DNA of 64,000 nt from Dermatophilaceae bacterium (GTDB taxonomy: Bacteria > Actinomycetota > Actinomycetes > Actinomycetales > Dermatophilaceae): assembly GCA_035448065.1 (NCBI GenBank), contig DAOTIG010000002.1, positions 234 to 64,233 on the forward strand. The letters run 5' to 3'. A program made the position numbers and the translations under genes. The notes under the pieces were generated by a model. That model had not been told where the DNA came from. It saw only the letters and a list, made by a program, of their open reading frames with translations, and did not search any database. Positions 34,571 through 36,120 of the stretch are shown here, piece after piece (the first letter of the stretch is position 1; the number at the start of each line of letters is the position of its first letter).

Positions 34571-34629
34571 ATTATCGGGTGACCCGATAAAGATGCACTT
34601 CACCCGACGAACTTCCTCGGGTGAAGTGC
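34571..34629 (-). promoter_or_regulatory. Composite element, copy L: 21-bp palindromic box (ATTATCGGGTGACCCGATAAA) plus a 35-nt hairpin
   Basis: The box is at 34571-34591. On the minus strand it ends in GATAAT, 5 nt before the GTG at 34565. The hairpin GCACTTCACCCGA-cgaacttcc-TCGGGTGAAGTGC is at 34595-34629. This is an inverted copy of 36062-36120. Confidence 0.75.
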
Positions 34630-34748
34630 CACCTTGTCGGGTCGAGCGAGCGGCGACGCTCCAGCCGGTGGCCATCCCGGCCCGCGCCGGCCACCCGCAG
34701 ACGAAAACCCAAGTGCGACAAGGCGACCGAGCGGCATACCCTCGAGCG

Positions 34749-35966
34749 ATGAGCATGTTCCCGACCACGCTGCCCGGCACTCGCGCCGACGTGCGGATGT
34801 GGGCGCACGCGCACGACATCGAGCCCGCCGCGATCCAGCAGCTGCGCAACATCGCCAGCCTGCCCTGGGTCGAGGGCGTCCGTGTCATGCCCGACGTCCA
34901 CCTCGGCAAGGGCGCGACGGTCGGCTCGGTCATCGCGATGCGTCAGGCGGTCGCGCCGGCTGCGGTCGGCGTCGACATCGGCTGCGGCATGATCGCGGTC
35001 CGCACCTCGCTCACCGCCGAGGACCTGCCCGACGACCTGCACCCGCTCCGGCTCGCGATCGAGAAGGCGGTGCCGGTCGGCTTCGCCGGTCACCAGCGGC
35101 CGGTCGACCCGACCCGCCTCGAGCTCGGCCACCCCGACCGGGTGCGCCGTGACTTCGACGCCTTCTGGGACGGCTTCGACGAGCTCGACCCGGCGGTCGC
35201 CGACCAGGCCAAGAAGGCGCACCAGCAGCTCGGCACGCTCGGCGGCGGCAACCACTTCATCGAAGTGACGACCGACGACGAGGGCCGGGTGTGGCTCATG
35301 CTGCACTCGGGGTCGCGCGGCATCGGCAACCTACTCGCCCAGGCGCACATCGAGCGGGCGCGCACGCTCCCGCACAACGCCGACCTGCCCGACCGGGACC
35401 TCGCGGTCTTCCTCGCCGGCACGCCGGAGATGCAGGCCTACCGTCGTGACCTGTTCTGGGCGCAGGACTACGCGCTGCGCAACCGGGCGATCATGATGGC
35501 GCTGGTCCAGCGGGTCGTCGCCGACGAGCTGGGCTCCGACGATCGGCCGGTCGGCTTCGACGAGGCGATCCAGTGCCACCACAACTACGTGGCGGAGGAG
35601 ACCTACGACGGCGTCGAGGTCCTCGTCACCCGCAAGGGCGCGATCCGGGCTGGTCGGGGCGACCTCGGGCTGATCCCCGGGTCGATGGGCACGGGGTCGT
35701 TCGTCGTCCGTGGGCTGGGCAACGAGTCGTCCTACTGCTCGGCGTCGCATGGCGCGGGGCGTCGGATGAGCCGGAACGCAGCCAAGCGGCAGTTCACCGC
35801 CTCGGATCTGGCCCGCCAGACCAAGGGCGTCGAGTGCCGCAAGGACGCCGGGGTCGTCGACGAGATCCCGGCGGCCTACAAGAACCTCGACGAGGTCATC
35901 GCCGCGCAGACCGATCTCGTCGAGGTGGTCACCCGGCTCACGACGCTGCTCTGCGTCAAGGGCTGA
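34749..35966 (+). CDS. rtcB: RNA-splicing ligase RtcB
   Basis: Internal ATG of ORF 34365..35966: MSMFPTTLPGTRADVRMWAHAHDIEPAAIQQLRNIASLPWVEGVRVMPDVHLGKGATVGSV...GGGNHFIE...HSGSRGIGN...HHNY...GSMG...SASHGAGR. Confidence 0.9.
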   Translation: MSMFPTTLPGTRADVRMWAHAHDIEPAAIQQLRNIASLPWVEGVRVMPDVHLGKGATVGSVIAMRQAVAPAAVGVDIGCGMIAVRTSLTAEDLPDDLHPLRLAIEKAVPVGFAGHQRPVDPTRLELGHPDRVRRDFDAFWDGFDELDPAVADQAKKAHQQLGTLGGGNHFIEVTTDDEGRVWLMLHSGSRGIGNLLAQAHIERARTLPHNADLPDRDLAVFLAGTPEMQAYRRDLFWAQDYALRNRAIMMALVQRVVADELGSDDRPVGFDEAIQCHHNYVAEETYDGVEVLVTRKGAIRAGRGDLGLIPGSMGTGSFVVRGLGNESSYCSASHGAGRRMSRNAAKRQFTASDLARQTKGVECRKDAGVVDEIPAAYKNLDEVIAAQTDLVEVVTRLTTLLCVKG

Positions 35967-35975
35967 CCGCCTCAG

Positions 35976-36038
35976 CCGGTATGCCGCGTGGTCGCCTTGC
36001 GGCCGCGCGGCCCGGGTGGCGGCCACGCGGCATACCGG
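35976..36038. terminator. Long inverted repeat after rtcB, made of two CCGGTATGCCGCGTGG motif copies
   Basis: CCGGTATGCCGCGTGGTCGCC (35976-35996) pairs with GGCGGCCACGCGGCATACCGG (36018-36038). 21 bp with one G-U, and a 21-nt GC-rich loop. Confidence 0.5.
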
Positions 36039-36061
36039 GTGCGGCTCGACCCGAGAAGCTG

Positions 36062-36120
36062 GCGCTTCACCCCAGGAGCTTCCTGGGGTGAAGCGCCGGT
36101 TTATCGGGTCACCCGATAAT
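36062..36120 (+). promoter_or_regulatory. Composite element, copy R: 35-nt hairpin plus the 21-bp palindromic box (TTTATCGGGTCACCCGATAAT)
   Basis: The hairpin GCGCTTCACCCCAGGA-gct-TCCTGGGGTGAAGCGC is at 36062-36096. The box is at 36100-36120, ending in GATAAT 6 nt before the GTG at 36127. Confidence 0.75.

What the first reader, a model, noticed from the sequence alone, without database searches (positions are those of the whole stretch)
34571..36120. rtcB is bracketed by inverted copies of a 59-bp hairpin-plus-palindrome element that abut the start codons of the two outward-facing genes
**Sequence.** Copy L (34571-34629) and copy R (36062-36120) are reverse complements of each other.
- They share an identical 21-bp box, TTTATCGGGTCACCCGATAAT. 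It is a perfect 9-1-9 palindrome.
- A 35-nt hairpin sits 3-4 nt away from the box.
- The hairpin stems differ by compensatory changes: GCACTTCACCC...GGGTGAAGTGC versus GCGCTTCACCC...GGGTGAAGCGC. Both loops contain CTTCC. The pairing is therefore being preserved.

**Position.** In both cases the box ends in GATAAT, 5-6 nt before a GTG start: the 307-aa unknown gene at 34565 (minus strand) and exonuclease III at 36127 (plus strand). No SD is present in either case. GATAAT is thus positioned as the -10 of a leaderless promoter, and the palindrome would be an operator overlapping it.

**Interpretation.** One unknown dimeric regulator probably co-controls an uncharacterised protein and an AP endonuclease on either side of the RNA ligase RtcB. 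The hairpins may be a further DNA or RNA signal. Alternatively, the pair are terminal inverted repeats of a transposase-less cassette that carried rtcB in.
Basis: seen in the sequence. Interest (0 to 1): 0.7.

Follow-up and report, generated by a model that had tools for sequence, protein, structure and literature searches.

The report
Dispersed palindromic repeat copies flanking rtcB
The two hairpin-plus-palindrome elements around rtcB are real, but they are copies of a repeat scattered through the intergenic DNA of a whole bacterial family (Dermatophilaceae), not a private control site for rtcB's neighbours.

Summary
The sequence observation holds. Two inverted copies (34571-34647 and 36044-36120, 77 nt, 84% complementary) bracket rtcB, and each folds into a very stable 63-nt hairpin.

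The 19-bp box TTATCGGGTSACCCGATAA is not specific to this locus. The canonical unit is box, 43-nt palindromic spacer of variable sequence, box. This is the architecture of REPINs.

Copies lie mostly just after stop codons and are about twofold enriched between convergent genes. None of 108 foreign high-GC loci carries rtcB. The closest rtcB relatives keep the order CDCA-like gene, rtcB, acyl-CoA dehydrogenase, with compact leaderless-type promoters and no element.

The exonuclease III start is most likely GTG 36142, not 36127. So only the CDCA-like gene is truly abutted, and there the box end GATAAT may have replaced the ancestral -10.

In other genomes the same inverted bracket encloses a gene for a winged-helix plus Vsr/homing-endonuclease-like nuclease (AbiEi_4-DUF559). 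This protein is a candidate partner of the repeat.

Separately, the 9-mer CGGCATACC occurs 51 times in the window.

The parts
34571..34647 (.). Left copy of the repeat: intact box, palindromic spacer, degenerate inner half-box. It is one arm of the 77-nt inverted repeat.
   Evidence: the repeat finder I1. Covariance model R1 gives 81.4 bits. Folds at -49.3 kcal/mol (- strand) and -46.7 (+ strand), z -6.4 and -7.5.
34572..34590 (.). Box L, TTATCGGGTGACCCGATAA, a perfect 9-1-9 palindrome.
34595..34629 (.). Spacer hairpin L, GCACTTCACCCGACGAACTTCCTCGGGTGAAGTGC.
34634..34643 (.). Inner degenerate half-box L, TTGTCGGGTC (followed by GAGC). It pairs with the inner half of box L in the 63-nt hairpin.
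   Evidence: (I4)
36044..36120 (.). Right copy of the repeat, inverted relative to the left copy, with the intact box facing outward.
   Evidence: the repeat finder I1. R1 gives 87.3 bits. Folds at -62.1 kcal/mol, z -10.1.
36048..36057 (.). Inner degenerate half-box R, GACCCGAGAA.
   Evidence: (I3)
36062..36096 (.). Spacer hairpin R, GCGCTTCACCCCAGGAGCTTCCTGGGGTGAAGCGC.
36101..36119 (.). Box R, TTATCGGGTCACCCGATAA.
34749..35966 (+). rtcB (405 aa). It is resident at this locus in relatives that lack the repeat.
   Evidence: Pfam RtcB, E = 1.3e-126. Loci L002, L003, L006, L130, L131.
34737..34742 (+). TACCCT, a -10-like hexamer 6 nt before the rtcB ATG (leaderless geometry). It overlaps a copy of the abundant 9-mer.
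   Evidence: Read. The same TACCCT or TAACCT-N6/7-ATG is present in L130, L002, L003. Promoter activity is inferred, not measured.
33642..34565 (-). 307-aa protein distantly related to the cadmium (zeta) carbonic anhydrase repeat. Start GTG 34565 is supported by orthologue N-termini.
   Evidence: Pfam CDCA, E = 4e-7. PDB 3uk8, E = 1.2e-4. MLIDHLPD in L006 and MLIEHLPD in L130.
34571..34576 (-). GATAAT at the outer end of box L, 5 nt before GTG 34565. It is a candidate -10 donated by the repeat.
   Evidence: Geometry read. Relatives have TAGCAT or TACCCT-N6-ATG at the same position. Activity is inferred.
36115..36120 (+). GATAAT at the outer end of box R. It lies 21 nt upstream of the probable exonuclease III start.
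36142..36990 (+). Exonuclease III (xth), with revised start GTG 36142 preceded by AGGA at 36134-36137. The gene is absent between rtcB and the acyl-CoA dehydrogenase gene in relatives L130 and L003.
   Evidence: TIGR00633 profile position 2 aligns to residue 7 of the 36127 version. PDB 2jc5 residue 2 aligns to residue 19 of the 36088 version. Loci compared.
35969..36045 (.). Hairpin directly after the rtcB stop codon, built from two inverted copies of the abundant motif (GGTATGCCGCG ... CGCGGCATACC). It is the likely ancestral rtcB terminator, and L130 and L002 have the equivalent.
   Evidence: the repeat finder I5..

Best explanation
The two elements are copies of a family-wide, dispersed, nested-palindrome intergenic repeat of the Dermatophilaceae.

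**What the unit is.** The full unit is a 19-bp palindromic box, then a 43-nt spacer that is always a hairpin or palindrome but differs in sequence between copies, then a second box. This is the architecture of a REPIN (a doublet of REP palindromes around a hairpin spacer).

**What the window holds.** It has two 'one-and-a-half-box' copies. They are each other's closest relatives and were added in this lineage on either side of a resident rtcB, with the intact boxes outward. This most likely happened by local, inverted duplication or transposition of one copy.

**How the family works (inferred).** It most likely works at the DNA level. The invariant box is the recognition site of a dimeric protein, and the palindromic spacer allows hairpin or cruciform extrusion. 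The best candidate for the protein is the winged-helix plus Vsr/homing-endonuclease-like AbiEi_4-DUF559 protein, which other genomes encode between the same inverted brackets.

**Local effects (by-products).**
- The right copy adds a 29-bp stem to the 3' end of the rtcB transcript.
- The left copy has displaced the ancestral -10 of the leaderless CDCA-like gene, and its terminal GATAAT probably substitutes for it.

**Shown:** family membership, architecture, distribution, absence from the orthologous loci, and the gene starts.

**Inferred:** the protein partner, the mode of spread, and any promoter or transcript-end effect.
For: There are 10 loci on one 2.9-Mb contig and 7 in Nostocoides japonicum.

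**Architecture.**
- 25 of 63 unique copies have a second box exactly 62 nt downstream, and 10 have a half-box like the window copies.
- The spacer is held at 43 nt.
- In 54 copies, 82.8% of cells pair against 69.5% in shuffles and 34-46% when the partner is slid.
- 226 cells have changes on both sides, against 85 in shuffles. There are few G-U pairs.
- This matches the published REPIN description: two inverted REPs, a spacer that never repeats in sequence but always forms a hairpin (PMC3337134).

**Genomic context.**
- Copies lie usually 10-100 nt after a stop codon.
- Convergent intergenic regions hold 35% of copies against 18% background, chi-square p = 0.0016.
- No foreign copy lies next to rtcB.
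- No other box end has a candidate start within 6-7 nt.

**Relatives.** L130 (RtcB 82% identical), L131, L006, L002 and L003 have no box. L130 has a 73-nt divergent intergenic region with TAGCAT-N6-ATG and TACCCT-N7-ATG.

**Window.** It contains only these two copies.

**Partner gene.**
- AbiEi_4-DUF559 is the only recurrent paralogous family next to boxes.
- It is bracketed exactly like rtcB in six places, in three genomic contexts.
- Homologues chosen without reference to the box are bracketed too. All seven loci measured have inverted repeats of 51-99 nt at 78-88% complementarity.
- Its model (pLDDT 92.7) matches AbiEi (6y8q), Rv2827c (1zel) and the catalytic domain of homing endonuclease I-Bth0305I (3r3p, TM 0.72).
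Against: - Copy number is in the tens per genome, and these are lower bounds from a truncated scan. That is low for classical REPs.
- The box is identical across genera, whereas REP sequences are usually species-specific. This fits a conserved host-protein site at least as well as a selfish element.
- No presence/absence polymorphism with a clean empty site was obtained for this family, so the element ends, any target duplication, and mobility itself are not shown.
- No RAYT-type transposase was seen near the boxes.
- The link to AbiEi_4-DUF559 is by position only.
- This protein family was not found in the 64-kb window.
- Two copies within 1.5 kb of each other, and the only two in 64 kb, is not what random dispersal gives. 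Local duplication is assumed, not demonstrated.
- The copies used for the covariation count were pre-selected for at least 15 of 21 palindromic positions.
Confidence: 0.78

Rival explanations
1. First reader's model. The box is the operator of one dimeric transcription factor. It overlaps the -10 of two leaderless outward promoters, so the CDCA-like gene and exonuclease III form a small co-regulated set around rtcB.
For: - The box is a perfect 9-1-9 palindrome conserved across genera.
- GATAAT lies 5 nt before the validated GTG of the CDCA-like gene, where relatives have a TANNNT hexamer 6 nt before ATG.
- Tens of sites per genome is a regulon-like number.
Against: - 35% of copies lie between convergent genes, and most lie 10-100 nt after stop codons.
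- Only the window copies have a start within 6-7 nt.
- Orthologous CDCA-like/rtcB loci have no box.
- Exonuclease III starts at 36142 behind AGGA.
- The box always comes with a structured 43-nt palindromic spacer, often as a doublet, which an operator does not need.
Confidence: 0.08
2. Mobile cassette. The two copies are the terminal inverted repeats of a gene cassette that brought rtcB into this locus, as the same brackets do for AbiEi_4-DUF559 genes.
For: - A bracket of the same size and orientation (about 80 nt, intact box outward, degenerate half-box inward) flanks AbiEi_4-DUF559 genes, including one sitting between whiA and gap.
- Gene order around rtcB is rearranged among relatives.
- Exonuclease III is a lineage-specific addition next to the right copy.
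Against: - rtcB sits next to the CDCA-like gene and/or the acyl-CoA dehydrogenase gene in relatives with no box at all (L130, L131, L006, L003).
- The rtcB -10/ATG segment and the terminator hairpin inside the bracket are shared with those relatives.
- No foreign box locus carries rtcB.
- The inner flank shows no robust similarity to DUF559 upstream regions: best result 6 of 500 shuffles, for one of five comparisons.
Confidence: 0.06
3. RNA-level element. The hairpins are selected as transcript-end structures (terminators or 3' stabilisers, possibly bidirectional). Alternatively, the two copies pair in the rtcB mRNA to control its fate.
For: - The hairpins are very stable.
- Positions are just after stop codons, with enrichment between convergent genes.
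- In full copies the G+C-rich stem is followed 3 nt later by TTTAT on both strands.
- REP and Correia elements are known to act this way (PMC3337134, PMC2649163).
Against: - The terminator scan does not call them, because there is no T-run.
- The palindromy runs through the centre of both box and spacer, and G-U pairs are rare. This is the signature of DNA symmetry rather than of a strand-specific RNA fold.
- rtcB has leaderless geometry, with TACCCT 6 nt before ATG. The left copy therefore lies upstream of the likely transcription start and cannot pair with the right copy in the mRNA.
- The left copy sits in a divergent region where no terminator is needed.
Confidence: 0.2
4. Host-protein site array. 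The boxes are binding sites of a conserved chromosomal protein (nucleoid-associated or chromosome-organising, in the manner of BIME/IHF/gyrase sites or matS). They are kept by selection rather than spread by transposition.
For: - The identical 19-mer is present across genera.
- Copies occur at orthologous intergenic sites in different genomes, with diverged spacers but intact boxes (argC-pheT, glnD-ffh, hemQ-msrB).
- Copy number is modest, and copies are dispersed along 2.9- and 5.2-Mb contigs.
Against: - It does not explain the obligatory hairpin spacer.
- It does not explain the brackets around one nuclease gene family.
- It does not explain the lineage-specific gain at rtcB.
- No candidate protein has been identified.
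Confidence: 0.15

Closest known systems
REP / REPIN elements with their RAYT transposases (Pseudomonas, Enterobacteria; PMC3116915, PMC3337134)
   Same: - A short palindromic unit occurs as inverted doublets at a fixed spacing (62 nt here, 71 nt in P. fluorescens group I).
- The spacer differs in every copy yet always forms a hairpin.
- Copies are extragenic and dispersed, largely vertically inherited, and sometimes at orthologous sites.
- One protein-coding gene family is found bracketed by the repeats.
   Different: - No HUH/Y1 (IS200-like) RAYT was seen. The bracketed gene encodes a winged-helix plus PD-(D/E)XK (Vsr/DUF559) nuclease and is multi-copy.
- There are tens rather than hundreds of copies.
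- The box is a perfect palindrome identical across genera, with no GTAG-type 5' tetranucleotide.
Correia repeat-enclosed elements of Neisseria (PMC2649163) and bacterial MITEs in general (PMC10969869)
   Same: - Small non-coding inverted-repeat elements in intergenic DNA.
- Their ends can create outward promoters, and their transcripts form long hairpins.
- Here the terminal GATAAT sits where the neighbour's -10 should be.
   Different: - No target-site duplication or cognate transposase has been identified here.
- Promoter activity is untested.
- The element is a nested palindrome rather than two terminal repeats around a core.
AbiEi antitoxin operators (paired inverted repeats bound by the AbiEi winged helix; structure 6y8q)
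   Same: The protein bracketed by the boxes has an AbiEi-type N-terminal winged helix (Pfam E = 4e-12; Foldseek E = 2.7e-6). A box lies 150-200 nt upstream of its gene in all six box-type loci.
   Different: - There is no AbiEii toxin partner.
- The C-terminal domain is a nuclease.
- The repeats lie on both sides of the gene and are also dispersed without it.
- Binding is untested.
Free-standing homing endonuclease genes of the Vsr-like EDxHD type (I-Bth0305I, 3r3p)
   Same: The C-terminal domain of the bracketed protein superposes on the I-Bth0305I catalytic domain (TM 0.72, rmsd 3.0 over 96 residues). Its acidic and lysine residues are invariant in 41 homologues.
   Different: - It is not in an intron or intein.
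- At the hemQ-msrB site it is stable across six genomes rather than sporadic.
- The cleavage site is unknown.

Membership tests
REPIN (REP doublet forming a hairpin) | Unit is a short (about 16-25 nt) palindromic REP sequence | tested here: met
   19-bp 9-1-9 palindrome, invariant in all copies collected.
REPIN (REP doublet forming a hairpin) | [quoted passage not shown] | tested here: met
   25 full doublets at 62-nt spacing. The 43-nt spacer is paired in 82.8% of cells, with 18 of 29 pairs showing changes on both sides. The window copies have only a degenerate second unit.
REPIN (REP doublet forming a hairpin) | Extragenic, dispersed, many copies per genome | tested here: inconclusive
   All copies are intergenic and dispersed.
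REPIN (REP doublet forming a hairpin) | Cognate single-copy RAYT (HUH-Y1 transposase) flanked by the repeats | tested here: not met
   Clustering of 187 ORFs within 350 nt of boxes gives no transposase family. The only recurrent paralogous neighbour is AbiEi_4-DUF559. The sample is truncated.
MITE | Terminal inverted repeats shared with an autonomous IS that encodes a transposase, and target-site duplications | not tested
   No clean empty site is available. Flanks often extend the palindrome, so the ends are undefined. The bracketed gene is not a known transposase.
Transcription-factor operator / regulon | Sites lie in promoter regions, at a fixed position relative to starts of the regulated genes | tested here: not met
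   Convergent 35%, tandem 51%, divergent 14%. Copies are usually just after stop codons. Only the window copies have a candidate start within 6-7 nt.
Transcription-factor operator / regulon | Site conserved at orthologous promoters | tested here: not met
   There is no box at rtcB or the CDCA-like gene in L002, L003, L006, L130, L131.
Intrinsic terminator | G+C-rich hairpin followed by a U-run | tested here: not met
   The consensus scan finds none at the elements. Only TTTAT follows the stem in full copies.
Rfam RNA families | Match to a curated covariance model | tested here: not met
   Only a chance miRNA hit was found (23 bits against a gathering score of 70, E = 0.19).

The most novel reading that the evidence does not exclude
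The box-hairpin-box repeats would be the non-autonomous partners of a previously undescribed actinobacterial system that resembles REPINs but does not depend on a RAYT transposase.

Its protein would be a winged-helix plus Vsr/homing-endonuclease-like nuclease (AbiEi_4-DUF559). In every locus examined, the gene for this protein is bracketed by hairpin-containing inverted repeats of about 80 nt. These repeats co-vary with the gene across genera.

The bracket around rtcB would then be a footprint of this system's activity: local copying, and perhaps the rearrangement that placed exonuclease III next to rtcB.
Probability: 0.25. Interest if true: 0.65.

Novelty: new member of a known kind. Interest (0 to 1): 0.35.

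Why it matters
**For this finding.** It removes a tempting but unsupported story, namely a dedicated regulator tying an AP endonuclease and an unknown protein to the RNA ligase RtcB. It replaces that story with an ordinary one: repeat elements colonising intergenic DNA. One neighbouring gene probably now borrows its -10 from the repeat.

**More generally.**
- It documents a REPIN-like repeat family in high-G+C Actinobacteria. I found no description of it in the searchable literature.
- It points to a nuclease family (AbiEi_4-DUF559, currently annotated as antitoxin-like or Vsr-like) whose genes are consistently framed by hairpin inverted repeats. If that link is functional, it would be a second, independent solution to what RAYTs do for REPINs.
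- These repeats also break metagenome assemblies. Many homologues of the nuclease and of RtcB sit on contigs of 1-3 kb.

Tried and rejected
- **Rfam scan of 33000-38000.** It gave only a chance miRNA hit.
- **Pairing of the 5' and 3' flanks in the rtcB mRNA (circularisation or processing stem).** Rejected. rtcB has leaderless geometry here and in relatives, so the left copy lies upstream of the likely transcription start.
- **rtcB-specific role of flanking hairpins.**
  - It was prompted by L003, where an unrelated 72-nt hairpin also flanks rtcB on both sides.
  - The metagenome scan found that hairpin only next to rtcB, plus one diverged copy elsewhere.
  - Near-identical relatives carry it only upstream (L238) or only downstream (L158), with other palindromic repeats in its place.
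  - These are therefore unstable insertions, not a conserved feature.
- **Whole-flank inverted repeat (about 80% over 150-175 nt).** On inspection it reduces to the 77-nt element plus a 22-nt segment built on the abundant 9-mer. The middle part is not convincingly similar.
- **Homology of the inner left flank to the upstream regions of DUF559 genes (which carry two TCCACAG motifs).** Not robust.
- **Intrinsic-terminator and sigma-70 promoter scans.** Nothing was found at the elements.
- **Literature search for the box and 9-mer sequences.** Only primers and oligonucleotides turned up.
- **Sequence search of the nuclease against PDB.** It found nothing. The relationship appeared only by fold.
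Full report
**1. What is in the sequence**

- The box TTATCGGGT[G/C]ACCCGATAA lies at 34572-34590 and 36101-36119.
- The 35-nt hairpins lie at 34595-34629 and 36062-36096.
- The stems differ by a compensated pair, and both loops carry CTTCC.
- With up to three mismatches the box occurs nowhere else in 64 kb, and never in 100 shuffles.

The repeat is longer than described. The arms are 34571-34647 and 36044-36120 (77 nt, 84% complementary). Each arm has a third, degenerate half-box on the rtcB side: TTGTCGGGTC on the left and GACCCGAGAA on the right. Each copy therefore folds as a 63-nt hairpin in which the inner half of the box pairs with that half-box. The energies are -62.1 and -49.3 kcal/mol, with z-scores of -10.1 and -6.4. 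Rfam has no family for it.

**2. The genes**

- rtcB is 34749-35966 (Pfam E = 1.3e-126).
- The '307-aa unknown' is a distant relative of the cadmium (zeta) carbonic anhydrase repeat. Its start at GTG 34565 gives MLIDHLPD, the same N-terminus as its orthologues.
- Exonuclease III is different. TIGR00633 and the Neisseria enzyme 2jc5 align from GTG 36142, which is preceded by AGGA. The in-frame GTG at 36127 is probably not the start, so the box is 21 nt away from it.
- rtcB has TACCCT 6 nt before its ATG.
- In the closest relative (L130), the CDCA-like gene has TAGCAT-N6-ATG and rtcB has TACCCT-N7-ATG, in a divergent intergenic region of only 73 nt.

Leaderless-type geometry is thus the local norm. 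In the window, the terminal GATAAT of the left box occupies the place of the ancestral -10 of the CDCA-like gene.

**3. The box is a dispersed repeat of a bacterial family**

- The organism is a Dermatophilaceae MAG.
Nearly all are from Dermatophilaceae/Intrasporangiaceae: Knoellia, Janibacter, Phycicoccus, Nostocoides japonicum, Lapillicoccus, Ornithinibacter and Pedococcus.
- Lower bounds per genome are 10 loci on one 2.9-Mb contig and 7 in N. japonicum.
- The canonical unit is box, 43-nt spacer, box, with 62 nt from start to start. 25 of 63 unique copies are such doublets, and 10 have a half-box like the window copies.
- The spacer differs between copies but is always a palindrome. In 54 copies, 82.8% of cells pair, against 69.5% in shuffles and 34-46% when the partner is slid. 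There are 226 cells with changes on both sides, against 85 in shuffles, and few G-U pairs. The copies were pre-selected for palindromy, so the percentage paired is inflated. The diversity of pair types is not affected by that selection.

Symmetry runs through the very centre of both box and spacer, and wobble pairs are scarce. Both points suggest a DNA-level palindrome rather than a strand-specific RNA fold.

**4. Where the copies sit**

- They are intergenic, usually 10-100 nt after a stop codon.
- Against all other intergenic regions of the same loci, they are enriched between convergent genes (35% against 18%) and depleted in divergent regions (14% against 19%), with p = 0.0016.
- Among about 260 oriented box ends, only the two in the window have a candidate start within 6-7 nt.
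- None of the 108 high-G+C foreign loci encodes RtcB.
- A covariance model built from the family finds only the two copies in the window (87 and 81 bits; the next hit is 15 bits).

**5. The rtcB locus in relatives**

- Loci with RtcB 77-82% identical (L002, L003, L006, L130, L131) have no box.
- L130 has the CDCA-like gene, rtcB and the acyl-CoA dehydrogenase gene in the same order and orientation as the window, without the repeats and without exonuclease III.
- The elements, and xth, are therefore additions in this lineage to a resident rtcB.
- The 22-nt inner inverted match (34719-34740 and 35978-35999) joins the rtcB -10 region and the terminator hairpin. Both are shared with relatives, and both are built on an abundant 9-mer.

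**6. A recurrent bracketed gene elsewhere**

- The only paralogous family that recurs next to boxes is a roughly 300-aa protein with an AbiEi_4 winged helix and a DUF559/Vsr-like domain.
- In six places, in three contexts (hemQ-msrB, whiA-gap and one other), it is framed exactly as rtcB is here. The order is intact box, hairpin, degenerate half-box, gene, half-box, hairpin, intact box.
- Five homologues chosen from a protein search, without regard to the box, are framed too. One has a variant box (TTTTCGGGGTSACCCCGAAAA) and the others have unrelated sequences.
- All seven loci measured have inverted repeats of 51-99 nt at 78-88% complementarity.
- At hemQ-msrB the gene is present in six genomes, while the sequence type of the bracket differs.
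- The AlphaFold model (pLDDT 92.7) matches AbiEi (6y8q), Rv2827c (1zel) and the catalytic domain of homing endonuclease I-Bth0305I (TM 0.72). The acidic and lysine residues are invariant in 41 homologues.

This makes the protein a plausible site-specific nuclease partner of the repeats. The link is positional only.

**7. Is flanking by hairpins special to rtcB?**

L003 has an unrelated 72-nt hairpin on both sides of rtcB. A metagenome scan for it was dominated by chance single matches and was truncated. It found the hairpin next to rtcB in three contigs, plus one diverged copy elsewhere. One close relative has it only upstream and another only downstream, with other palindromic repeats in its place. 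The flanks of rtcB are therefore a place where small palindromic repeats come and go. They are not a conserved structure.

**8. Mechanism and rivals**

*Best supported.* The elements are copies of a REPIN-like dispersed repeat. The box is recognised as duplex DNA by a dimeric protein, and the palindromes can extrude. The pair at rtcB arose by local inverted copying. The local consequences are a long stem at the 3' end of the rtcB transcript and a donated -10 for the CDCA-like gene.

*Regulon model.* It fails on position, on orthologous loci and on the xth start.

*Cassette model.* It fails on synteny.

*RNA-element model.* It fits the positions, but not the central symmetry, the lack of a U-run, or the left copy's place upstream of a leaderless start.

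*Host-site model.* It fits the cross-genus identity of the box and the copies at orthologous sites. It does not explain the spacer or the brackets.

**9. Comparison and novelty**

The architecture matches the published description of REPINs: two inverted REPs, a spacer that never repeats in sequence yet always forms a hairpin, and a protein gene flanked by them (PMC3337134; PMC3116915). The defining RAYT was not found, copy number is low, and the box is conserved across genera. I therefore file it as 'works like a REPIN', not as a member of that family.

Correia elements give the precedent for repeat ends that create promoters (PMC2649163).

Nothing on this repeat, or on inverted repeats around DUF559 genes, turned up in the library. 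It is a new member of a known kind. The nuclease association is the part that could make it a new variant.

**10. Side finding**

- CGGCATACC occurs 51 times in the window, against 0.28 expected. It is on both strands (27 and 24), with the extended consensus cGCGGCATACCGGat.
- 41 copies lie inside ORFs, with a strong frame preference: Ala-Ala-Tyr in sense and Tyr-Ala-Ala in antisense.
- The copy in xth lies in a 4-residue insertion relative to the Neisseria enzyme.
- Inverted pairs form hairpins after genes.
- The 8-mer core runs at 0.2-2 per kb in Knoellia, Nostocoides, Lapillicoccus and the rtcB relatives. It is absent from the Janibacter loci and from L009.
- Density, strand symmetry and frame bias resemble DNA uptake sequences. 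I found no description of it.

Noticed in passing
whole window, e.g. 10990/11017, 34732, 35978/36028, 36926/37005; also loci L002-L008, L130, L131 and many of L010-L122: The 9-mer CGGCATACC (extended consensus cGCGGCATACCGGat) occurs 51 times in 64 kb, against 0.28 expected. It is on both strands. 41 copies lie inside ORFs with a strong frame preference (Ala-Ala-Tyr or Tyr-Ala-Ala). Inverted pairs form hairpins after genes. One copy sits in a 4-aa insertion in exonuclease III. The 8-mer core is at 0.2-2 per kb in several Dermatophilaceae genera but absent from the Janibacter loci. This is a DNA-uptake-sequence-like signature, and I found no description of it.
   Followed up: partly
L050, L057, L051/L095, L104, L076, L038, L123-L129: Genes for a protein of about 300 aa (AbiEi-type winged helix plus Vsr/homing-endonuclease-like PD-(D/E)XK domain) are bracketed by hairpin-containing inverted repeats of 51-99 nt in every locus measured. 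Two TCCACAG motifs lie upstream of the gene. The hemQ-msrB site is occupied in six genomes, with different bracket sequences. Many homologues sit on contigs of 1-3 kb.
   Followed up: partly
window 33642-34565 (-) with rtcB 34749-35966; L002, L006, L130, L131: A protein related to the cadmium (zeta) carbonic anhydrase repeat is the conserved neighbour of rtcB in this clade. In L130 the two genes are transcribed divergently from a 73-nt region, with leaderless-type -10 hexamers for both. In L002 its orientation is flipped. The function of the pairing is unknown.
   Followed up: partly
L003 4340-4480, L238 and L158 flanks of rtcB: Another palindromic repeat, TTTGACCGCCATGGCGGCGAAACTCA, occurs in tandem units of about 58 nt. 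Yet another hairpin (GGGACC..GGTCGTCGGAGTGT..) replaces the 72-nt hairpin beside rtcB in close relatives of L003.
   Followed up: no
L048, L073, L087, L115 (Chlamydiae MAG, G+C 42-46%); L096 (Thermoanaerobaculia MAG); L109 (N. japonicum): The same 19-mer with a central T (TTATCGGGTTACCCGATAA) lies inside a different, nearly identical AT-rich repeat at four places in a Chlamydiae MAG. L096 and L109 carry tandem arrays of box-like palindromes without the 43-nt spacer. It is unclear whether this is coincidence, contamination or a shared protein site.
   Followed up: no
window 36088-36990: The public gene call for exonuclease III (300 aa, starting at GTG 36088 inside the repeat hairpin) is too long. 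Homology starts at 36142.
   Followed up: yes
window 1763-1860: There is an 18/36-nt tandem repeat (GGCACCCCCTACTGGTCA, 5.4 copies, 81-91% matches). A tRNA-Gly(CCC) lies at 20295-20367, immediately next to a copy of the 9-mer.
   Followed up: no
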